Source: a virus
IMG/VR virus record: IMGVR_UViG_3300037042_004723
Location: 64,001-128,000 of that record
Direction: 5' to 3' (one strand)
Length of the DNA stretch: 64,000 nucleotides
This document shows positions 26,887 through 34,353 of the stretch, piece by piece. How positions within the stretch are numbered: the first letter of the stretch is position 1; every line of letters begins with the position of its first letter. Made by a program: the position numbers and the translations under genes. The notes under the pieces are model-generated. The model made no database searches and was not told where the DNA came from. It saw only the letters and a program-made list of their open reading frames with translations.

Positions 26887-26889
26887 TCG

Positions 26890-26963
26890 TGACCCAGGCA
26901 GGAATCGAACCTGCGACCTATTCTTTAGGAAAGAATTGCTCTATCCAACTGAGCTACTTGGTC
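26890..26963 (-). tRNA. tRNA-Arg(CCT)
   Basis: GACCAAG/CTGGGTC acceptor; ATTCT-TTCCTAA-AGAAT anticodon arm; GCAGG-TTCGATT-CCTGC T arm. Confidence 0.9.
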
Positions 26964-26964
26964 T

Positions 26965-27040
26965 TGGTGCATCCGGTTGGATTCGAACCAACGTAATTTC
27001 GCTTAGAAGGCGAACGCATAATCCACTAGACTACGGATGC
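26965..27040 (-). tRNA. tRNA-Arg(TCT), CCA encoded
   Basis: GCATCCG/CGGATGC; TTCGC-CTTCTAA-GCGAA; GTTGG-TTCGAAT-CCAAC; ACCA end. Confidence 0.92.
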
Positions 27041-28855
27041 AGTAACAGGCTTGGAGCGTACATCATCGTCAGATGAGTCCTCATTGTCAAAGGCCAATAC
27101 ACCCTTCGTCGCCCTGCGAGTCGACGGGATATACGGGCCGTCGTCGGGTCCCTTGACGTACGAGTTCTTCCAGAACCGCTTGATGGCGATCCACTCGTTT
27201 TCTTGACGCGGGGGCTGTCCACGCTCACGGAGCGCTTCGATAGTCACATCATCGAGGGGCTTGGTCTTGAAGATGTTATAGTTCAACTTCTCCAGGTCTA
27301 GCTCCATCTCGGCGTCCATGGGCATCTGCCCACGGTAGATCTTGAAGCACCAGTGGCCACGGACATCGAATCGATGGGCGTACTTCGCGCGGAGGGCGCC
27401 GGCTCCGTAGCCCCTGACGATTTCCCTGATGACCTTGTCACGCAGGTGGACCGTGTAAAACGGCGGCGGGACGGGCTTCTTGAGGCCAAGGTCCAGCATG
27501 CCCTTTCTGATTTTGCTCTGGCTGTGGATGCTGAGCTTGCGCTGGGCAACGATAGTGGTCTGGTGATCGTTGACGCAGTCGATCATGCTGTGAAGGATGA
27601 ACGGCGCTAAGCTCATCGGGCGGAGCCACTCTGGCTTCTCCTCGACTCGGTGCGTGACGATGTTGAGGTTCGTGTCAACATCGTCGCCACGGCGGTTGGT
27701 GCCCTGGGACAGCAGCAGCTCGTGGTGCTCGCCATCTTCTCCGACGAGAATTCCCGCCAGGAGGTAGGCGCCTGTCGGACCCGTGAGACCACGGGTCCGG
27801 ATTTGATGCTCGGAGAGGGCAACCCCCTCGGAGATTGCAAACCAGCAGACGTTGAACGGGAACTTATCCGGGAACGGAAGTTCTTCGCACGCCTTCAGCT
27901 GGCGCTTGTAGAGGATGAATCCTTCATTGTCCAGCACCTCCTGGTCGACCTTAGGGTCATTTGGATGATGGAACGGAATCTGGGCGATTTCTTCGGTGAC
28001 GTAGCGGTCCACCTGCATGTGCAGCTCGACGTAGGACTCCGGGGCGACTTCGAAGATCTTGGCCTGCCGAAGCAAGACGTACATCTTGCCGCACTCGCGC
28101 CGGAACTTTTCGTTGATTTGCTTGCTGTCGTAGTTCCGCTTCAGCACATTCAGAATGGTGAGGTACACGTTGATGACGTTGTCGTGGGTCCTGTTGCTGG
28201 GCTTGCCCCAGTGCGGAAGGTCATTGACCACCCACGGCAGCGGACCGCCACCCAGTTCCTCCAGGATGGCGGGAATCTTCGAGAAGGCGATGGCGCGCTT
28301 GTGCAGAACGTCCTCGGACGCCGGAAGTAGATGGGGTGCCTGCTCCATCGTCATCTTGACGGTCTCCTGCCACGCCTCCAAGATCTTCCGCTGAAGCTCC
28401 TGTGCGTTACCCTGCTGGACGTATTCATCCATGCGCATCGCAATGGCCCCAGCCTGCCAGCCGCCATCGTTGAAGAAGGTGAGATATATATCTTTCCCCT
28501 CGCCCTGGCGACGAACGCGCATGAACCACATCCCCCACTTCTTGCGCAACCTCTCGAAAAGCTCACGGTCCTTGTCGGTCACGCGATAGCCAATCCACTG
28601 CTGGCCCTCGTCGGTCATCAAGCCGATGTACTTTGGGGTCGGAGATTTGCTGGGCTTGGCAGCGTCAAGCTTGTCCTGCCAGCGAACCGTCAGGTTGCCC
28701 TGAGGATTGGGATATCCCTCTGTGGACGGCCAGATAAGCTGGATGACCGGGTAGATGTAATGTTCTGCGCCGTTGGGGCACGGAATATGATCGGCACCCA
28801 CGCGGACGATGACATTGCCTTCGTGGATAGGGGTTCCCGGGTCGATCTTCGCCAT
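27026..28855 (-). CDS. large hypothetical phage protein
   Basis: 609-aa ORF; C-terminal HRFDVRGHW...FWKNSYVKGP motif. Confidence 0.75.
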   Translation of the reverse strand: MAKIDPGTPIHEGNVIVRVGADHIPCPNGAEHYIYPVIQLIWPSTEGYPNPQGNLTVRWQDKLDAAKPSKSPTPKYIGLMTDEGQQWIGYRVTDKDRELFERLRKKWGMWFMRVRRQGEGKDIYLTFFNDGGWQAGAIAMRMDEYVQQGNAQELQRKILEAWQETVKMTMEQAPHLLPASEDVLHKRAIAFSKIPAILEELGGGPLPWVVNDLPHWGKPSNRTHDNVINVYLTILNVLKRNYDSKQINEKFRRECGKMYVLLRQAKIFEVAPESYVELHMQVDRYVTEEIAQIPFHHPNDPKVDQEVLDNEGFILYKRQLKACEELPFPDKFPFNVCWFAISEGVALSEHQIRTRGLTGPTGAYLLAGILVGEDGEHHELLLSQGTNRRGDDVDTNLNIVTHRVEEKPEWLRPMSLAPFILHSMIDCVNDHQTTIVAQRKLSIHSQSKIRKGMLDLGLKKPVPPPFYTVHLRDKVIREIVRGYGAGALRAKYAHRFDVRGHWCFKIYRGQMPMDAEMELDLEKLNYNIFKTKPLDDVTIEALRERGQPPRQENEWIAIKRFWKNSYVKGPDDGPYIPSTRRATKGVLAFDNEDSSDDDVRSKPVTASVV

Positions 28856-28894
28856 GCCCTAACTACAACTGGGCTGGTTGAAACTTTCGAACAA

Positions 28895-29392
28895 TTATTG
28901 GTTGGCCATCAGTTCGTTATAGTTGAAGTCTTCTCCGAGCGATTCCTGAATTGATGTAGTTTCCTCATCGCGTCGCTTCACTGGCTCTTGGTTGTACAGG
29001 AAAACATGCCTTGGGACGCGGGTCAGGCCCTGCACGAACTTCTTTCCTTCTTCGGTGATTCGGTAGTTACCAACGCGCTCGCTGCCGTCATCCCGGGTGC
29101 CTTTCTGGTCTTCGATCAGTCCCCAGTAGCGAAGCTTGGACCAGTCACCGCCGCGAACAGTGGCCCCACTAATAATTCGTGACAGGTACGATGGGACGTG
29201 TAGCCATTGTTCAGCTGGATTGGATTCGAAGTATTTGTAAATGTAGATCAAGGCAAGCGACATGGAACCGTTTAGCTTGCGCTTATAGAGCTTCACGAAC
29301 TGGTTGCAGCAAGGGCAGTCGGCGCCCTCACTGAATCGCTCACGAAGCCATCGCTTGGCTTCCTCTAGGGTGCGCGTGTCAGCTTCAGCCAT
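28895..29392 (-). CDS. hypothetical protein with CPCC and winged-helix-like region
   Basis: CPCCNQ; GGDWSKLRYWGLIE...YRITEEGKKF. Confidence 0.7.
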   Translation of the reverse strand: MAEADTRTLEEAKRWLRERFSEGADCPCCNQFVKLYKRKLNGSMSLALIYIYKYFESNPAEQWLHVPSYLSRIISGATVRGGDWSKLRYWGLIEDQKGTRDDGSERVGNYRITEEGKKFVQGLTRVPRHVFLYNQEPVKRRDEETTSIQESLGEDFNYNELMANQ

Positions 29393-29448
29393 TGATACGA
29401 CGGTCGCAACCAGCCAGCCAATTGTCAACATCGGCGCAAGCGCTTGCG

Positions 29449-29536
29449 TGGTGGAAGACAGAGGACTCGAACCTCAAGCCCGTCAGGGCTCCAACCGCCT
29501 TCCGGGCAGGTCAGGACCATGGCCTGTTTATCTTCC
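29449..29536 (-). tRNA. non-canonical 8/4 long-variable-arm tRNA, anticodon GGA (Ser-like)
   Basis: 8-bp acceptor GGAAGATA/TGTCTTCC; 4-bp T stem GAGG/CCTC; variable arm GAGCCC-TGAC-GGGCTT; A-CCA end. Confidence 0.8.
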
Positions 29537-29752
29537 ATGACGACGTTTTTTATCTGGGAGCGGGATGAGCTTGGCGATGGCTCCGCCTTTGATCGGCTTG
29601 CCGGCGGGGGGGTGGCGGATATGCGCCCATCTCTCTCTGGGCGGATCTCTTTTCACTTCCGTCGTGTGACCACATTGCTGGCAGTAGGTGATCATCGCTT
29701 CACCGGTCCGGTGAACATCGACGTGTTCGTATCCGCATTTGTCGCAAATCAA
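29528..29752 (-). CDS. small zinc-ribbon protein
   Basis: MICDKCG...YCQQCG. Confidence 0.55.
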   Translation of the reverse strand: MICDKCGYEHVDVHRTGEAMITYCQQCGHTTEVKRDPPRERWAHIRHPPAGKPIKGGAIAKLIPLPDKKRRHGR

Positions 29753-30406
29753 TCCCAGTCACCCCGCAGGTACTTTTTTAGCTGCCACTGTTTCCCGAGG
29801 ACGTGATCTGTCACGACTCCATCCTGGGATCTGATGGTCCGGCGCTTGTCTGCCCGCATTCCCGACCCCACTTGCTCTCTGCGTGACGACGACAGGGCTG
29901 ACGACCTTTGCTCGTTTGCAGCATCCCATATTCTTGCTCGCAATATCTCCAGGGCGGTTTCTTTGTTGCTGTGCTGAGAGCGCTCAGATTCACAGCGTAC
30001 AGAGATTCCGGTGGGGACATGAGTCAGTTGCACGGCACTGTTGGTGACGTTGCGGTGCTGCCCTCCGGCGCCAGATCCACGGCAGAAGTTCCACTCCAGA
30101 TCGTCGTCTCGAACGACTACTTGGGTAGCAGTTGGCTCAGGAAGAACGGCCACCGTAATCGTGGAAGTTTGCATTCTTCCACCGGATTTCTCCTGCCAGC
30201 GGTGTCCACCCGATTCGTTGGCAAACGCTACATTAGCGCCCTTGCCAGATACCCTGAAGACGATGAGTCCAGGGCGCTCGGTCAGAAGTTCGACGCTAAA
30301 GACACCTCCGGCTCCCCATCTTTGCGTAAATGGAGAACTGGTCTTGAACGAGGCGCTTCGAGTGATCTCCGCCCTCACCACTTCGGATTTCTACTATTGC
30401 CGACAC
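29749..30406 (-). CDS. miniature class-I peptide chain release factor expressed through a programmed +1 frameshift (about 218 aa)
   Basis: frame 0 (30406-30299) VSAIVEIRSGEGGDHSKRLVQDQFSIYAKMGSRRCL; +1 frame (30297-29749) SVELLTERPG...NESGGHRWQ...TSTITVAVLPE...GSGAGGQHRNVTNSAVQLTHVPTG...ERSQHSNK. Confidence 0.9.
30295..30309 (-). promoter_or_regulatory. prfB-type +1 ribosomal frameshift signal with a UAG stop
   Basis: GGAGG (30309-30305), TGT, CTT (30301-30299), TAG (30298-30296), C. Confidence 0.88.
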
Positions 30407-30427
30407 TGTGGGACGAGCCTAGCATAG

Positions 30428-30598
30428 TTAGAATTCGATAACTATGACTGTAGACTTCGCGGGCTCATCCTGCTGCATCGGGCGCTCTTCTTCGTAGAAT
30501 GGCGCTTCAATCTGCAGTGGTTGCTGAATGTTCTTCTGAGGGCAACTGGGACAGAAGCGCCAAGCTGGCCTTGCGTGGGGGCACAGTGGAATCTGCAT
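30428..30598 (-). CDS. small hypothetical protein (not in ORF track)
   Basis: manual translation MQIPLCPHARPAWRFCPSCPQKN...VIEF; GAGG upstream. Confidence 0.55.
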   Translation of the reverse strand: MQIPLCPHARPAWRFCPSCPQKNIQQPLQIEAPFYEEERPMQQDEPAKSTVIVIEF

Positions 30599-30637
30599 GC
30601 CTCAAGTATACCCCTGGCTAACTTGGCGTGCCTCAGT

Positions 30638-30671
30638 AAGCTAGTGCGTCTACCAACTCCGCCACGATGGC
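30638..30671 (-). pseudogene. 5' half of a tRNA-Leu-like gene
   Basis: GCCATCG-TG-GCGGAGTTGGTAGACGC-A-CTAGC-TT; no matching 3' half found. Confidence 0.6.
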
Positions 30672-30878
30672 TTAAGACTCGTATCCCTTGGTGCCACGAC
30701 GTGGAATATTCTCCTCGCCTGGCGCCTTGGTCTTCAGCTGAAGCTTGGCCTGATTACGCAGGTACCTGTTGGCGCCCTTCTTGGCCAGCTTCACGCCCTC
30801 GCCCGGCTGGCTCCATTTATCAATGGCTCCACGCTGAGCGCCTTCGAGTCGGATGGCTTCGATAAGTTCACGGAACAT
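30672..30878 (-). CDS. small basic protein with MFRELIE N-terminal motif (leaderless)
   Basis: TTGACT 30913, TAGTTT 30890, ATG 30878. Confidence 0.65.
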   Translation of the reverse strand: MFRELIEAIRLEGAQRGAIDKWSQPGEGVKLAKKGANRYLRNQAKLQLKTKAPGEENIPRRGTKGYES

Positions 30879-30919
30879 GAACTGAAACTATGCCATCAGA
30901 TCTACGAAGTCAAACACGG

Positions 30920-30992
30920 TGCGTGGGAAGGGATTCGAACCCTCAAACATCTGACCCTAAATCAGACCGCTCACCAGCTGGCGTACCCACGA
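30920..30992 (-). tRNA. tRNA-Leu(TAG), short variable loop, overlapping the upstream tRNA
   Basis: TCGTGGG/CCCACGC; TCTGA-TTTAGGG-TCAGA; GAGGG-TTCGAAT-CCCTT. Confidence 0.8.
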
Positions 30993-31058
30993 CCGGATTC
31001 GAACCGGCACTTTACCCGTCTTAAGCGGGTTGCTTCTACCAAATTGAGCTACGCGGGC
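30984..31058 (-). tRNA. tRNA-Leu(TAA), short variable loop
   Basis: GCCCGCG/CGTGGGT; ACCCG-CTTAAGA-CGGGT; GCCGG-TTCGAAT-CCGGT. Confidence 0.85.
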
Positions 31059-31063
31059 GTCTG

Positions 31064-31267
31064 CTAGTTCCAGCGGCTCACGGATAAGGCGGTCTTCTTG
31101 ACCATAATCCGTGCGCCATGACGAAAGAACGTCGTCTCTCCATCGTAAGAGTCGGCATCAGCCAAAGCGCGAGCAGCTGCGGATTTGGGGCCCATGACCC
31201 GCGCCGTAGCCTCAAGGACGCTGCGAGGAATCTCGGTCATGTGCTTTTCCTTGGCCATTCTGCTCAA
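31064..31267 (-). CDS. hypothetical protein
   Basis: ORF track. Confidence 0.5.
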   Translation of the reverse strand: MSRMAKEKHMTEIPRSVLEATARVMGPKSAAARALADADSYDGETTFFRHGARIMVKKTALSVSRWN

Positions 31268-31530
31268 TTGACTGGGGTCGTATTGAAGCCCATGGCCATG
31301 AGCTTATCACGAAGCATCCGGTCGTTTATGTCTGGCTCTGAGACCGTACGGGCGGCCAATTCGATGAACCCGATGAGCGAATCGTTGTTCAGGTTGTCAA
31401 TGCGAGGCCCTGTATGAACGATAGTATCATGCAAGAGTCCAAAACAACGCGCCTTGCGCTCGCTGCTTGCGTTGTCCCGCATCTCCGCCATGTGGAGATG
31501 CATCGTCTTGACTTTTTCCTGAATCGTCAT
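31264..31530 (-). CDS. hypothetical protein
   Basis: ORF track; starts just after tRNA-Val. Confidence 0.55.
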   Translation of the reverse strand: MTIQEKVKTMHLHMAEMRDNASSERKARCFGLLHDTIVHTGPRIDNLNNDSLIGFIELAARTVSEPDINDRMLRDKLMAMGFNTTPVN

Positions 31531-31535
31531 CTCGG

Positions 31536-31606
31536 TACTCCCAGAAGGAATCGAACCATCGTCAACGGCATGTAAAACCGTCGCACTACCATTGTGCTAT
31601 GGGAGC
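31536..31606 (-). tRNA. tRNA-Val(TAC)
   Basis: GCTCCCA/TGGGAGT; ACGGT-TTTACAT-GCCGT; GATGG-TTCGATT-CCTTC. Confidence 0.88.
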
Positions 31607-31706
31607 AGATTCTCAGGCTTTCGCCTGATTGTCTAATTTTTAGCGCGTAACGTAAAGCAAATCACTGATATTATAGCTGATCAGTTCTAGCCACTTGATT
31701 TCCGCC

Positions 31707-32015
31707 TTAGTCAAATTCTTGTGGGCCCGCCAGGTCTGAGATTGGTTCAAAAGTATTTAGAAACATCGGCGTCTTCTCGCCCACCCAGGCGTCATCGACG
31801 TTGAAGCTGAAGAACTCCTCGGCGTCCTCTTCGGTCATGCCGTCCCTGGCGATCAGGATGGCGATGCATTTCTCGCGGTCGTAGCAAGCGACCGGTTCGC
31901 GCATCTTTCCGTAGACGACGCCGATAAAGGCGTTCTCGAATCCATCGGCAAGCATAAATTCCTCTTCGCCATGGAATTCTTCGAAATAGGACTGAATCTG
32001 TTCTTTGGTAGCCAT
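31707..32015 (-). CDS. conserved phage hypothetical protein
   Basis: LADGFENAFIG...ACYDREKCIAIL..RDGMTEEDAEEFFSFNV..AWVGEKTP motif familiar from phage genomes. Confidence 0.75.
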   Translation of the reverse strand: MATKEQIQSYFEEFHGEEEFMLADGFENAFIGVVYGKMREPVACYDREKCIAILIARDGMTEEDAEEFFSFNVDDAWVGEKTPMFLNTFEPISDLAGPQEFD

Positions 32016-32017
32016 CG

Positions 32018-32090
32018 TGGCAGCGGGGAGTTCCGACCTCCTGCACCGTACGCCTTATGAGAGCGTCGTCCTGACCCGCAGGTCGCTGCC
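32018..32090 (-). tRNA. atypical tRNA-like element with CAT anticodon
   Basis: perfect 7-bp acceptor GGCAGCG/CGCTGCC; ACGCT-CTCATAA-GGCGT; aberrant T loop GTCGGAA and D arm. Confidence 0.55.
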
Positions 32091-32101
32091 AAAGTCTGTC
32101 G

Positions 32102-32175
32102 TGGGCCTGCTTGGAATCGAACCAAGCTTATTCATCGATTATGAGTCAAGTGCCATACCACTAGGCGACAGGCCC
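32102..32175 (-). tRNA. tRNA with CAT anticodon (Ile2 or elongator Met)
   Basis: GGGCCTG/CAGGCCC; CTCATAA loop; CTTGG-TTCGATT-CCAAG. Confidence 0.85.
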
Positions 32176-32263
32176 ATCGCCGGATCACGGGTACCTTGCA
32201 GCCTGCCCATTGTCAAGAACCGTCGGTTGTCAGGTTGGTCCGACTTGTAGTACTACATAGATC

Positions 32264-32581
32264 ATGTTCAGGCTGCTGATCAGCGAGTGCCGCGCCTCCC
32301 TCTCGGAGTCGATCGAGAAGTCAGGTGAGACCTTCGCCGGATTCAACAAGCCCAAGCGGACACCTGAACACCCCAAGAAGTCTCATGCCGTCCTCGCCAA
32401 GGACGGCCATGGTACGAAGCTAATCCGATTCGGCCAGCAGGGCGTCTCAGGCTCTCCCAAGAAGCAGGGCGAGTCAGACGCCTACCGCAGTCGCCGAGAG
32501 TCATTTAAGGCCCGACACGCGAAGAACATCAGCAAGGGCAAGACGTCAGCTGCTTACTGGGCCGACAAGGTGAAGTGGTAA
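32264..32581 (+). CDS. conserved basic phage protein with MFRLLISE N-terminal motif
   Basis: KLIRFGQQGVSGS...SFKARHAKN...SAAYWADKVKW. Confidence 0.8.
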   Translation: MFRLLISECRASLSESIEKSGETFAGFNKPKRTPEHPKKSHAVLAKDGHGTKLIRFGQQGVSGSPKKQGESDAYRSRRESFKARHAKNISKGKTSAAYWADKVKW

Positions 32582-32602
32582 CCGCTATGATTCGAGGAAA
32601 TC

Positions 32603-33106
32603 ATGTTTAAGTCTCTCATCTCCGAGTGCCTCGCCTACCTCTCCGAAGCAGGCGAGGAGAACCAGCCCGTCAAGGCGCCCAGGAAGCACAAGCATGATCG
32701 AGCCGCCGAGCGGACTGGTCACCTCTTGAACACACCACTTTCGAGCATGTCTCGCAGGAAGATGCTCAAGACGATCCCCCACCTGCACCACCACTTCGAG
32801 AAGGGGCACGGCAAGGGCGAGGGAGACTACCGAACGGTAGACCTGGATGACCTGAATACCCTTAGCAAGCATGCTGAGCAGATCTCCAACGACGCGAATG
32901 CAATCATGCGGATGCCTGGACCGGCGCACCACCTGGCTGGTCACCTCTGCAAGCATGTTGCGAGCGCTCACGAGCGGATGAGCAAGTACTGGACTGACAA
33001 CAGTGACAACGAGTCCGCCGAGCTTCACGGAAGCGAGAGCGCCAAGTATGGCGACATGGCCAAGCACCATCACAAGGTTTCCAAGCGCCACGGGTACGGT
33101 TACTAG
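32603..33106 (+). CDS. His-rich protein with MFKSLISE N-terminal motif
   Basis: ORF track; shared N-terminus with 32264-32581. Confidence 0.7.
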   Translation: MFKSLISECLAYLSEAGEENQPVKAPRKHKHDRAAERTGHLLNTPLSSMSRRKMLKTIPHLHHHFEKGHGKGEGDYRTVDLDDLNTLSKHAEQISNDANAIMRMPGPAHHLAGHLCKHVASAHERMSKYWTDNSDNESAELHGSESAKYGDMAKHHHKVSKRHGYGY

Positions 33107-33179
33107 TCCGCCGAGATGGACTTGAACCAGCAACCTATCGCTTATAGGGCAGCCGCTATATCCATTGAGCTATGGGATC
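33107..33179 (-). pseudogene. degenerate/chimeric tRNA (TAT loop)
   Basis: D arm and TTCAAGT loop are present, but acceptor and anticodon stems do not pair. Confidence 0.55.
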
Positions 33180-33187
33180 AGAAAGGT

Positions 33188-33299
33188 GACTCTCCACGTC
33201 CGAAGTGTTTATCGGCCGCTGGCTTGCGCCAACCATGCCCGGTCGACCAAGCCTTGCGGCTCACCGACTCCGGGATCTACCCTCGCCTGGTAAAGAGTC
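33188..33299 (-). ncRNA. unassigned structured RNA candidate
   Basis: closing stem GACTCTTT/GGAGAGTC; two GCAA-tetraloop hairpins (33249-33262, 33218-33233). Confidence 0.5.
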
Positions 33300-33442
33300 T
33301 AAAAAGAGGGGCCGCCGCCCCGGATGTTTAATGTGCGCGGGACCCTAGGTTCGACCGACGCAAGCGCTTGCGCTGCTATTGCGTGAGAAGTGCTCGATGC
33401 TGTTTTGGATGATAACCATCGGACTCCGGCTCACCTAAAATG

Positions 33443-33715
33443 TCAGGCCTCTGCGGTTCCGATCGGAATCTGGAAGGAGAGTCCCTCCCCTTCCAGGAAT
33501 CTCGCGTGGAGGCGGTTGATCAGCTGGTCGAAGGTGAAGCTGTCATCTGACGAGCCAACGTGCGTGTGGTCCTCGCCGATGTAGAGGGTGATGGCATTCC
33601 CTCCCCAGTCTGGCCCGAACGAGACAACTGGAGCCGTTGGATCTTTGCCGGCTGCGGCATCGCAGAGCCGGACAATCTCTTTCAGTATCTCTTCGCATTT
33701 CTCAGCTGTCGTCAT
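33443..33715 (-). CDS. hypothetical protein
   Basis: ATG 33715 just after tRNA-Glu. Confidence 0.6.
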   Translation of the reverse strand: MTTAEKCEEILKEIVRLCDAAAGKDPTAPVVSFGPDWGGNAITLYIGEDHTHVGSSDDSFTFDQLINRLHARFLEGEGLSFQIPIGTAEA

Positions 33716-33717
33716 CG

Positions 33718-33790
33718 TGACCCCGGTGAGAATTGAACTCAACGTCTTCGCTGTGAAAGAGCGACGTACTAACCATTATACGACGGGGCC
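33718..33790 (-). tRNA. tRNA-Glu(TTC)
   Basis: GGCCCCG/CGGGGTC; TCGCT-CTTTCAC-AGCGA; TTCAATT T loop. Confidence 0.85.
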
Positions 33791-33802
33791 GTGATTGTCA
33801 CG

Positions 33803-33873
33803 AGCGTACCGAGGGAGTTCAACCGAGGTCGATCGCTTACAAGGCGATCATTCCGCCACCGAACTACTCCACA
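33803..33873 (-). pseudogene. degenerate/chimeric tRNA-Thr(TGT)
   Basis: intact ATCGC-CTTGTAA-GCGAT arm and D arm; T stem and acceptor unpaired. Confidence 0.55.
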
Positions 33874-34074
33874 GTAAGATCGTGTATATTCAAGTCTATG
33901 AACGACAAGCGAAAGCAAAGCCTCTACTTCCCAGAAGACATGCTGGCGGAGGTCCAGGCCGAAGCCACTCGCCTGGACCGCTCGCTCTCTTGGGTGGTCC
34001 AGCGCGCCTGGACCCTCTCAAGGGAGAAGCTGAAGGAGATCCCTTCAATCAACCAGCCAACAGAGACAGACTAG

Positions 34075-34148
<74 letters not shown>

Positions 34149-34353
34149 GGTCAGACTCTGCGCAAAAATCTGCGAATAGTCAAGGCCGAGGTGATGTCCA
34201 GCTGTAAGTATATGAATTCATAATATACACCGTAGCGTAGGGCGCGGTGTCTTACACGTGGTTGATAGGTGAACGGACCGTTACATTACTGACAACACTT
34301 GCTTTACCCTGCATTGTTGGCATAATCAAGGTCATCCCAACAGGGAGGCCCCT

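What the first reader, a model, noticed from the sequence alone, without database searches (positions are those of the whole stretch)
30100..30260. The mini release factor lacks the stop-codon-reading tripeptide
Seen: ESGGHRWQEKSGGRMQTSTITVAVLPE. Established: RF1 has HRVQRVPATESQGRIHTS (PxT) and RF2 has HRLVRKSPFDSGGRRHTS (SPF). This loop is 4 residues shorter and has neither motif. The helix-5 tip is GEGG rather than GTGG/GSGG, domain 1 is absent, and the catalytic GGQ loop is intact. It does not resemble E. coli PrfH in domain 2. Inference: it is a codon-independent rescue factor, a factor with altered specificity, or a dominant modulator of host termination.
Basis: partly seen in the sequence, partly recalled or inferred. 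Interest (0 to 1): 0.75.

Follow-up and report, generated by a model that had tools for sequence, protein, structure and literature searches.

The report
Phage release factor without PxT loop
A 197-kb sediment phage encodes a shortened RF1-type translation-termination factor whose stop-codon-reading loop has been replaced by a tight serine-glycine turn, together with matching changes in the neighbouring helix; the same rebuild has arisen repeatedly in related phages, so it looks like a working factor with a different way of reading the codon, not a broken gene.

Summary
The peptide lies at window 30136-30216 (-). Against E. coli and T. maritima RF1, exactly the four residues holding PxT are missing, and GGQ is intact. 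The called 210-aa ORF is not the whole gene. The first strand and helix alpha5 (GEGG tip) lie one frame back and join by a prfB-like +1 frameshift (GGAGG-UGU-CUU-UAG-C), giving 218 aa without domain 1. This scan had already noted that frameshift-gated family on other DNA. New here: about 90% of relatives keep the loop as R-[IV]-P-P-[TN]-E-K, so this copy is a minority form. The short loop co-occurs with changes in alpha5 (Asp to His in 9/9 against 0/43, Leu to Arg) and Arg to Glu at the loop base. The residues of RF1's third-base pocket, the switch loop and GGQ stay conserved. This 'H-type' head is polyphyletic (one clade rejected, AU p=1e-13; about 8 changes). The gene is under purifying selection (dN/dS 0.10). 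It recurs in independent sediment assemblies. An AlphaFold model of an in-frame H-type relative superposes on ribosome-bound RF1 (TM 0.92). Best reading: an active, codon-dependent release factor with rebuilt first/second-base recognition; the codon set is unknown. ArfB- or PrfH-style rescue is not supported.

The parts
29749..30406 (-). Whole release-factor gene: GTG start at 30406-30404, +1 shift after codon 36, TGA stop at 29751-29749. The joined product is 218 aa (P0272).
   Evidence: The joined product scores 199 bits on NCBIfam prfA (positions 114-340 of 361); Pfam PCRF scores 40 bits (over its cut-off) and RF-1 scores 106 bits.
30299..30406 (-). Zero-frame part (36 codons): first strand of domain 2 plus helix alpha5, MSAIVEIRSGEGGDHSKRLVQDQFSIYAKMGSRRCL.
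   Evidence: It aligns without gaps to E. coli RF1 residues 109-145 and to the in-frame relative P0013.
30350..30379 (-). Helix alpha5 tip GEGGDHSKRL. His15 stands where RF1 has Glu123 (E. coli numbering) and most relatives have Asp. Arg18 stands where relatives have Leu.
30295..30309 (-). Frameshift cassette GGAGG-TGT-CTT-TAG-C: SD-like GGAGG at 30309-30305, spacer at 30304-30302, slippery CTT at 30301-30299, gate TAG at 30298-30296, C at 30295.
   Evidence: E. coli prfB reads AGGGGG-TAT-CTT-TGA-C. The same site sits at the homologous codon in 49 related loci: 38 TGA, 9 TAG, 2 TAA.
29752..30297 (-). +1-frame part (182 codons): the rest of domain 2, GGQ domain 3 and the switch loop, with domain 4 truncated (no C-terminal helix).
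30175..30195 (-). Remodelled recognition loop Q-E-K-S-G-G-R. It replaces RF1's Q-R-V-P-A-T-E-S-Q-G-R, and Q-R-I-P-P-T-E-K-R-G-R of the closest PPT-type relative L012.
30163..30204 (-). Flanks of the loop kept from RF1: HRWQ (Q = E. coli Q185 / T. thermophilus Q181) and M-Q-T-S (T = E. coli T198). The stacking His197 is Gln here, as in PPT-type relatives of the same clade.
30058..30066 (-). Catalytic GGQ motif.
   Evidence: invariant in alignment A2.
26889..34149 (-). Phage tRNA array around the gene: Arg-CCT, Arg-TCT, Leu-TAG, Leu-TAA, Val-TAC, Met, Glu-TTC, Met. These are the only tRNA genes of the genome and none is a suppressor.

Best explanation
The gene encodes an active, ribosome-binding class-I release factor of RF1 descent. 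It lacks domain 1 and the C-terminal helix. It is made only when a ribosome slips +1 at CUU-UAG-C, a gate that competes with termination at UAG. In this copy the codon-reading head has been rebuilt. The PxT recognition loop is replaced by a tight turn carrying a conserved Ser-Gly. The base of the loop changes Arg to Glu. The facing tip of helix alpha5 changes Asp to His and Leu to Arg. I infer that these changes form one structural unit, a charge swap that staples the short loop to the helix. I also infer that the factor still docks on an A-site codon, because the third-base pocket, switch loop and GGQ are kept. On this reading it recognises codon positions 1-2 differently from RF1, either more broadly or for another codon set. 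Shown here: the anatomy, the co-variation, the recurrence, the purifying selection and the RF1-like fold. Inferred: ribosome binding, catalysis, and any change of codon specificity.
For: The 4-residue gap falls exactly at PxT. The joined 218-aa product is collinear with RF1 domains 2-4, and prfA is the best model at 199 bits, against prfB 123, PrfH 86 and ArfB 45. In alignment A2, E64, G66, G67, H68, R69, Q71, S81, T84 and G114-G115-Q116 are invariant. Alpha5 position 15 is His in 9/9 sequences that lack the family's usual PP[TN]-type loop, or carry a variant of it. It is Asp in all 43 scored PPT-type sequences. The full table is D+full 47, H+short 8, D+short 4, H+full 2. The columns that best separate the two types are 15 (D>H), 72 (R>E), 18 (L>R), 16, 22 and 74, all in the alpha5 tip or the loop. 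H-type rows are not one clade: AU p=1.3e-13, 8 changes; 4 of 5 well-supported independent pairs change in the same direction and none in the opposite. The short loop needs 13 changes on a 68-row ML tree, at least 8 of them forced by supported branches. The rest of domain 2 in the window's gene is 86% identical to the PPT-type L012, so no domain swap occurred. dN/dS between the window and L010, both short-loop, is 0.10 (22.3 synonymous, 7.7 non-synonymous differences). The AlphaFold model of the natural in-frame H-type relative P0013 has pLDDT 94.6. It matches ribosome-bound RF1 at TM 0.92 and rmsd 1.8 A. Strands 67-75 and 78-90 are joined by a 2-residue turn. The PPT-type P0152 has a 10-residue loop there. 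Published work shows that domain 1 is not needed for codon specificity or for in vitro release (PMC1586002, citing Mora et al.).
Against: The sign test on independent pairs has too few pairs to reach significance (median p=0.125). According to PMC3418547, RF1 reads U1 through the backbone of the alpha5 tip. The Asp-to-His change may therefore be structural rather than base-reading. The stacking His of RF1 (E. coli H197) is Gln here, but it is also Gln in PPT-type relatives, so the whole family may already decode unconventionally. Four short-loop sequences (L002, L019, L041, L052) keep Asp, so the coupling is not absolute.
Confidence: 0.5

Rival explanations
1. Same job, different loop. The short Ser-Gly turn is functionally equivalent to the PPT loop, with Ser taking the place of Thr. 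The factor then reads the same codons as its PPT-type relatives, so the variant is a near-neutral structural alternative.
For: Nearly all short loops keep a Ser (KSGG, TSNG, YSGA, VSGR, QSNG, DSDG, KSQG, ISGN). The gate codon of the window's gene is UAG, an RF1 codon. Everything else in the protein is unchanged and under the same dN/dS (0.08-0.11) as PPT-type pairs.
Against: A near-neutral alternative would not be expected to arise about 8 times together with the same alpha5 substitutions (D>H, L>R) and the same R>E swap. In RF1 the Thr of PxT sits at the tip of a protruding loop. The model of the short form has only a 2-residue turn there.
Confidence: 0.2
2. Codon-independent ribosome rescue factor. 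Having lost PxT, the protein releases peptides from ribosomes stalled without a stop codon, for example after tRNA or mRNA cleavage by host defences, as ArfB, ICT1 or PrfH do.
For: PxT is lost, domain 1 is absent and GGQ is intact. The gene sits in the phage's tRNA array, a translation-support module. Four of the nine H-type sequences are in frame and lack the stop-codon gate (P0013, P0140, P0153, L140).
Against: There is no basic C-terminal tail; the protein ends ...LKKYLRGDWD. PrfH-CT (PMC12829566) uses such a tail to sense an empty mRNA channel, and from my own knowledge so does ArfB. The PrfH and ArfB models score far below their cut-offs (86 against 167 bits; 45 against 100 bits). No RtcB was found in the genome. 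The residues of RF1's third-base pocket and the GxGG alpha5 tip remain invariant, which a codon-blind factor would not need. The fold matches RF1 at TM 0.92 and PrfH at 0.65.
Confidence: 0.15
3. Modulator rather than terminator. The protein occupies the A site or competes with host RF1/RF2, with or without slow catalysis, and so retunes host termination or read-through during infection.
For: Domain 1 is absent. Published work on RF1/RF2 says this domain is needed for RF3-driven recycling (PMC1586002), so a domain-1-less factor may dwell on the ribosome. The phage ends many ORFs in TAG (39% in a crude ORF count).
Against: GGQ and its surroundings are invariant across the family, so catalysis is under selection. 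The frameshift gate limits synthesis, which suits an enzyme better than a stoichiometric competitor.
Confidence: 0.08
4. Decaying or artefactual gene. The deletion and the frame break are damage or assembly errors in a gene on its way out.
For: The gene needs a frameshift and lacks a canonical motif. Database proteins of the family are mis-called from an internal start.
Against: dN/dS is 0.10 between two short-loop copies. The same loop and frame break occur in independent assemblies and samples. The frameshift cassette is conserved at the same codon in 49 loci. The short loop recurs in many lineages.
Confidence: 0.03

Closest known systems
Bacterial release factor 1 (PrfA; TIGR00019; ribosome-bound structures such as 4V63, 5J30, 9MTR)
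   Same: Best sequence model (199 bits) and best fold match (TM 0.92 to ribosome-bound RF1). It keeps the GxGG alpha5 tip, HRxQ, the xTS strand, GGQ and the switch loop, and is collinear with RF1 domains 2-4.
   Different: It lacks domain 1, the C-terminal helix and a 6-residue hairpin (E. coli 157-162), and PxT is deleted. Glu123 is His, Arg186 is Glu and His197 is Gln. The score is far below the equivalog cut-off (199 against 423 bits). It is expressed through a +1 frameshift, which a 2025 survey of 12,753 genomes did not find for prfA (PMC12421855).
Frameshift-gated short RF1-type factors of large phages. These are the PPT/PPN-loop majority of this same family, noted earlier by this scan on other DNA; I found no description in the papers searched.
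   Same: Same architecture, the same frameshift cassette at the same codon, the same place in a tRNA array, and 82-86% identity to the nearest PPT-type member L012.
   Different: The window's copy has the 4-residue-shorter Ser-Gly loop plus the alpha5 substitutions His15, Ser16 and Arg18, and Glu72. Among the 120 best database hits about 7 have such a loop.
prfB (RF2) autoregulatory +1 programmed frameshift, SD-N3-CUU-UGA-C
   Same: SD-like GGAGG, a 3-nt spacer, CUU, an in-frame stop, then C.
   Different: The cassette sits at codon 36 at the end of helix alpha5, not at codon 25-26 of domain 1. The gate here is UAG, which PMC12421855 did not detect in prfB. The factor is of RF1 type.
Vertebrate mitochondrial mtRF1
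   Same: An RF1 paralogue in which the alpha5 tip and the recognition loop changed together (an RT and a GLS insertion, with the PxT Thr replaced), and which was therefore predicted not to read standard stop codons (PMC3418547). It is the precedent for coupled change of these two elements.
   Different: mtRF1 lengthens both elements and keeps domain 1. The phage factor shortens the loop and changes side chains without changing the length of alpha5.
PrfH (RF-H) and ArfB/ICT1 rescue factors
   Same: Small GGQ proteins without domain 1, and PrfH has a comparable length. In PrfH too, the residues facing the mRNA and decoding centre differ from those of RF1/RF2 (PMC1586002).
   Different: The PrfH HMM scores 86 against 167 bits and the ArfB HMM 45 against 100 bits. 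There is no RtcB partner and no basic C-terminal tail (PMC12829566). phmmer aligns only the GGQ domain to PrfH. The fold matches PrfH at TM 0.65.

Membership tests
RF1 (PrfA, TIGR00019 / NF001859 equivalog) | Whole-protein score over the curated cut-off (423 / 400 bits) | tested here: not met
   199 and 195 bits for the joined product; 178 and 174 bits for the called ORF.
RF1 (PrfA, TIGR00019 / NF001859 equivalog) | PxT tripeptide in the loop between the two recognition strands | tested here: not met
   4-residue gap opposite VPAT/VPVT. The loop reads QEKSGGR.
RF1 (PrfA, TIGR00019 / NF001859 equivalog) | GGQ motif and RF-1 (PF00472) domain | tested here: met
   PF00472 at 106 bits against a cut-off of 35. 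GGQ lies at 30058-30066.
RF1 (PrfA, TIGR00019 / NF001859 equivalog) | N-terminal domain 1 | tested here: not met
   The match to the prfA model starts at position 114 of 361. An in-frame stop lies just upstream of the GTG start.
RF1 (PrfA, TIGR00019 / NF001859 equivalog) | Release at UAA/UAG only | not testable with these tools
   Needs in vitro release assays.
Class-I bacterial RF fold (domains 2-3-4, open ribosome-bound form) | Structural superposition on solved RF1/RF2 | tested here: met
   The model of the in-frame H-type relative P0013 (78% identical to the joined product) matches 9mtr, 8akn and 4v63 at TM 0.90-0.92. The window's own joined protein could not be folded.
prfB-type programmed +1 frameshift cassette | SD-like element, 3-nt spacer, CUU, in-frame stop, C; the two frames join into one collinear protein | tested here: met
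   GGAGG-TGT-CTT-TAG-C. The joined product aligns without gaps to in-frame P0013 and to RF1. The site is conserved in 49 loci. Frameshifting itself was not measured.
PrfH (TIGR03072) | Score over the cut-off (166.65 bits) | tested here: not met
   86 bits.
PrfH (TIGR03072) | Adjacent rtcB-type ligase gene | tested here: not met
   No PF01139 match anywhere in the 197-kb genome. The neighbours match only PHROGs families of unknown function, or nothing.
ArfB / PrfH-CT type non-stop rescue factors | Basic C-terminal tail that probes the empty mRNA channel | tested here: not met
   The protein ends LKKYLRGDWD at a point equivalent to about residue 337 of E. coli RF1, with no extension. The ArfB model scores 45 bits against a cut-off of 100. 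The feature is as described in PMC12829566.

The most novel reading that the evidence does not exclude
Large phages toggle their own release factor between two discrete decoding-head architectures: the PPT loop with Asp/Leu on alpha5, and the Ser-Gly turn with His/Arg. The H-type head would read a different codon set, for example all three stop codons or a codon that RF1 and RF2 do not read. Phages could then re-programme where translation ends, or escape a host that manipulates RF1/RF2 during infection. The repeated independent origin would make it a natural experiment in how a protein 'anticodon' can be redesigned.
Probability: 0.25. Interest if true: 0.85.

Novelty: new variant of a known kind. 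Interest (0 to 1): 0.62.

Why it matters
The textbook account of how bacterial release factors read stop codons rests on the PxT and SPF tripeptides. Here nature has deleted that tripeptide repeatedly in an otherwise intact, selected and RF1-folded factor. Each time it made the same compensating changes in helix alpha5. That gives a compact 218-aa, assay-ready set of matched pairs: the window's protein against the 86%-identical PPT-type relative from L012. Such pairs can test which contacts set codon specificity. They can also test whether an RF can work, or become omnipotent, without the tripeptide. Further, the finding corrects the annotation of a large family whose database entries start in the wrong frame. 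It also bears on why large phages with tRNA arrays carry their own stop-codon-gated termination factor.

Tried and rejected
I did not resend them, and folded the natural in-frame relatives P0013 and P0152 instead.

DNA for the short-loop proteins P0004, P0044, P0060, P0081 and P0130 was therefore not obtained. Their alpha5 tips and gate codons remain unknown.

3. A degenerate-pattern scan of viral contigs for GGHRWQE gave only the window's near-twin; the other 29 stretches were chance matches. The metagenome scan gave 47 stretches. Eleven of them encode members of this release-factor family.

4. Domain-swap or recombination origin of the H-type head. A tree of domain 2 alone does not group the H-type rows, though it has only 73 columns and is poorly resolved. 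The window's domain 2 is 86% identical to PPT-type L012. Rejected for this lineage. P0013 has an unusually diverged domain 2 (64-71% against 88-92% for domains 3-4), so recombination is not excluded there.

5. Recoding. No suppressor tRNA was found, and long ORFs read normally under code 11. Rejected.

6. A link between loop type and stop-codon usage. Crude ORF counts (TAG/TGA/TAA) are 94/93/54 for the window's genome, 74/106/57 for G001 (PPT loop, TGA gate) and 97/124/80 for G003 (PPT loop, TAG gate). No clear difference emerged.

7. A link between loop type and gate codon. H-type lineages use TAG three times and TGA once. D-type loci use TAG in 8 of 48. Fisher p=0.026, but the lineages are not fully independent and the sampling was uneven. 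Suggestive only.

8. E. coli RF2 E167K, the known omnipotence mutation. It aligns to Thr42 of the joined product and does not bear on the loop or the alpha5 tip.

9. Neighbouring genes match only PHROGs families of unknown function, or nothing.

10. RNA evidence. Contigs from two metatranscriptome runs cover 29696-30230 and 29889-30103. DNA carry-over cannot be excluded, and parts without cover mean nothing, so I do not count this as proof of expression.

11. Literature searches for a phage-encoded short or PxT-less release factor found no description.

Full report
**Where the window lies.** The window is bases 64001-128000 of a 197,279-bp IMG/VR virus record that CheckV rates complete. GC content is 57%. 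The genome holds eight tRNA genes, all in the window around the gene in question, and none is a suppressor. Long ORFs read normally under the bacterial code.

**Checking the observation.** The ORF at 29749-30381 (-) encodes 210 aa. The quoted peptide lies at 30136-30216. Pfam finds the RF-1 (GGQ) domain at 106 bits and only a weak tail of PCRF. The best NCBIfam model is prfA (178 bits), ahead of prfB, PrfH and ArfB, and all four score below their cut-offs. phmmer against PDB chains aligns residues 40-210 to RF1 of T. maritima and E. coli. A four-residue gap falls exactly opposite VPVT/VPAT, and MAFFT against E. coli RF1 agrees. So the loop is four residues shorter and has neither PxT nor SPF.

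**The gene is longer than the called ORF.** Upstream, one base behind in frame, the sequence reads MSAIVEIRSGEGGDHSKRLVQDQFSIYAKMGSRRCL and then a stop. The two frames meet at GGAGG-TGT-CTT-TAG-C. That is the architecture of the E. coli prfB site AGGGGG-TAT-CTT-TGA-C, but with UAG. Reading CTT-T as one step gives a 218-aa product, P0272.
- P0272 aligns without gaps to RF1 residues 109-337 and to P0013, a natural in-frame relative.
- The prfA score rises to 199 bits and PCRF passes its cut-off.
- The same cassette sits at the homologous codon in 49 related loci, with TGA in 38, TAG in 9 and TAA in 2.
- The serine/threonine-rich 'N-termini' of database proteins in this family are the out-of-frame reading of alpha5.

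I found this before consulting the scan's notes. Those notes show that the frameshift-gated family was already reported on other DNA and on this stretch. A 2025 survey states that programmed frameshifting is not known for prfA and that TAG was not seen in prfB cassettes (PMC12421855).

**The family context changes the meaning of the missing PxT.** The word-index search found 6,740 proteins at E<=0.001, including ordinary cellular RF1s; the 120 best are about 140-240 aa, many on contigs of 100-300 kb. About 103 of those 120 carry a full-length loop, R-[IV]-P-P-[TN]-E-K-[RK]-G-R. About 7 carry a loop four residues shorter. The nearest full-loop relative is L012, from a syntenic 194-kb phage. Its product is 86% identical to the joined product and reads QRIPPTEKRGR where the window reads QEKSGGR. 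The window's gene is therefore a minority variant of a family that normally keeps a PxT-like motif.

**The variant is real and under selection.** The short loop and the frame break recur in L010/L080, L121, L109 and P0002. Contigs from other sediment samples also carry them. One 4.2-kb contig spans 29522-30613 with 55 substitutions and no indel inside the gene. Between the window and L010 there are 22.3 synonymous and 7.7 non-synonymous differences, giving dN/dS 0.10. Pairs of PPT-type genes give the same range.

**Other changes go with the short loop.** For 61 family members I had the whole protein, either joined across the frameshift or naturally in frame. The residue two places after the GG of the alpha5 tip corresponds to E. 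coli RF1 Glu123. It is Asp in all 47 sequences with a full PPT-type loop. It is His in eight sequences with short loops and in two with odd full-length loops: ETRSSHGSDK (L140), which has no PxT, and TVSPTDKKGR (P0153), an SPT variant. Four short-loop sequences keep Asp.

A column scan shows that the positions best separating the 'H-type' from the PPT-type all lie in the alpha5 tip or the loop:

| Position | Change | H-type | PPT-type |
|---|---|---|---|
| 15 | Asp>His | 9/9 | 0/43 |
| 72 | Arg>Glu | 7/9 | 0/43 |
| 18 | Leu>Arg | 7/9 | 0/43 |
| 16 | Ala>Ser | 6/9 | 2/43 |
| 22 | Asp/Glu>Lys | 5/9 | 0/43 |
| 74 | loop Ser | 5/9 | 0/43 |

By contrast, E64, G66, G67, H68, R69 and Q71 (the Q of HRxQ), S81, T84 and GGQ are invariant. 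The switch-loop region aligns to RF1. Only the parts that face codon bases 1-2 in RF1 are rebuilt (roles as summarised in PMC3418547). The third-base pocket is untouched.

**One origin or many.** On a 68-row maximum-likelihood tree with the loop columns removed, the short loop needs 13 changes. At least 8 are forced by well-supported branches, and no bootstrap tree made it a single clade. For the H-type as defined by His15, holding the nine rows together costs 178 log-likelihood units (AU p=1.3e-13). Eight changes are needed. In 4 of 5 well-supported independent pairs the loop state changes in the same direction, and in none the opposite. That is too few pairs for significance, with median p=0.125.

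A tree of domain 2 alone does not group the H-type rows, although it is short and poorly resolved. Outside the tip and loop, the window's domain 2 is 86% identical to L012. So this lineage did not import a foreign domain. The same coordinated rebuild seems to have arisen repeatedly. P0013 has an unusually diverged domain 2, so recombination may play a part elsewhere.

**Structure.** I therefore folded P0013, a natural in-frame H-type protein 78% identical to the joined product. The alignment used unaltered translations.
- The P0013 model has pLDDT 94.6. It takes the open form and matches ribosome-bound RF1 at TM 0.90-0.92 (rmsd about 1.8-2.1 A). It matches the closed crystal forms at about 0.55 and PrfH at 0.65.
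- The two recognition strands (67-75 and 78-90) are joined by a two-residue turn, with the conserved Ser at the end of the first strand.
- In the PPT-type P0152 model (pLDDT 94.2) the strands (69-75 and 86-94) are joined by a ten-residue loop.

The contact between Glu72 and His15/Arg18 is therefore an inference from the charge-swap pattern.

**What it most likely does.** The anatomy, selection and fold argue for an active class-I release factor that still docks on an A-site codon. Published work holds that domain 1 is dispensable for codon specificity and in vitro release (PMC1586002). In RF1, U1 is read by the backbone of the alpha5 tip and by the Thr of PxT, which also reads A2 (PMC3418547). 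The GxGG tip is kept here and the Thr is gone. I therefore expect recognition of position 2, and partly of position 1, to differ from RF1. It could be broadened, or re-targeted. A conserved Ser in nearly all short loops may take over a reading role. The codon set cannot be derived from sequence.

The gate is UAG in three of four independent H-type lineages that keep a gate, against 8 of 48 PPT-type loci. Four of the nine H-type sequences have no gate at all. Sampling was uneven, so this is only a lead.

mtRF1 is the known precedent for coupled change of the alpha5 tip and the recognition loop in an RF1 paralogue, though there by insertions (PMC3418547).

**Rivals.**
- Codon-independent rescue is weakened by several points. 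There is no basic C-terminal tail of the kind PrfH-CT uses (PMC12829566). The genome has no RtcB. The PrfH and ArfB models score below their cut-offs. The third-base pocket is conserved.
- Functional equivalence of the two loop forms is possible, but it does not explain the repeated, coordinated substitutions.
- A stoichiometric modulator cannot be excluded, but it does not fit the invariant GGQ.
- Decay or artefact is refuted by selection and recurrence.

**Novelty.** I found no paper describing a phage-encoded short RF1-type factor, its frameshift, or a natural PxT-less RF1 with compensating alpha5 changes. The scan had already noted the frameshift-gated family. The PxT-less H-type head, its co-variation and its repeated origin are what this report adds. 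It is a new variant of a known kind (class-I RF), not a new kind.

Noticed in passing
window 26889-34149; G001 (L156-L165) 33653-54982; G003 (L166-L175) 122228-149837: The window's phage has only 8 tRNA genes. Two syntenic relatives carry 44 and 40 in the same array next to the release-factor gene. Window 30.4-34.3 kb corresponds to 19 kb in G001. The 97%-identical relative L006/L080 still has at least 12 tRNAs nearby. The array contraction is therefore recent and not tied to the short loop.
   Followed up: partly
L006:4426-4500, L080:5798-5872, G001:C1:38823-38900, G003:C1:133535-133612: ARAGORN calls tRNA-like genes with 8-nt anticodon loops ('taag' and 'ctcg') in relatives; in L006/L080 the 'taag' gene lies about 1.5 kb from the frameshift-gated RF gene, in G001 about 2.4 kb. 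Their anticodon stems have mismatches. Such loops are typical of +1 frameshift-suppressor tRNAs, but 'taag' would pair with CUUA, not the CUUU at the slip site. The window has no such gene.
   Followed up: partly
window 30918-31058 (-): The predicted tRNA-Leu(taa) at 30983-31058 and tRNA-Leu(tag) at 30918-30992 overlap by 10 nt. The second has a mismatch at the top of its acceptor stem. One of the two calls, or their ends, may be wrong.
   Followed up: no
whole genome G000: In a crude count, 241 non-overlapping ORFs of at least 80 codons end in TAG 39%, TGA 39% and TAA 22%. To my knowledge TAG is usually the rarest stop codon in bacteria, so 39% is high. Two relatives show 31-32% TAG.
   Followed up: partly
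P0013 (database protein, 219 aa), P0140, P0153, L140: Some family members are naturally in frame, without the frameshift gate. Among the in-frame proteins seen, the H-type is over-represented (P0013, P0140, P0153, L140 against P0152, P0156, P0228, P0264). Sampling was biased, because alpha5 is only visible in database proteins that are in frame.
   Followed up: partly
window 29528-29752 (-) and 30428-30598 (-): Two small ORFs flank the RF gene tightly. One is a 74-aa protein with two CxxC pairs whose start overlaps the RF stop. The other is a 56-aa Cys-rich protein that ends 21 nt before the RF start. Neither has a PHROGs match.
   Followed up: no
window 29696-30230: Contigs from two sediment metatranscriptome runs cover parts of the RF gene with 1-6% differences. 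This is a hint of transcription in nature but not proof, because DNA carry-over is possible.
   Followed up: partly
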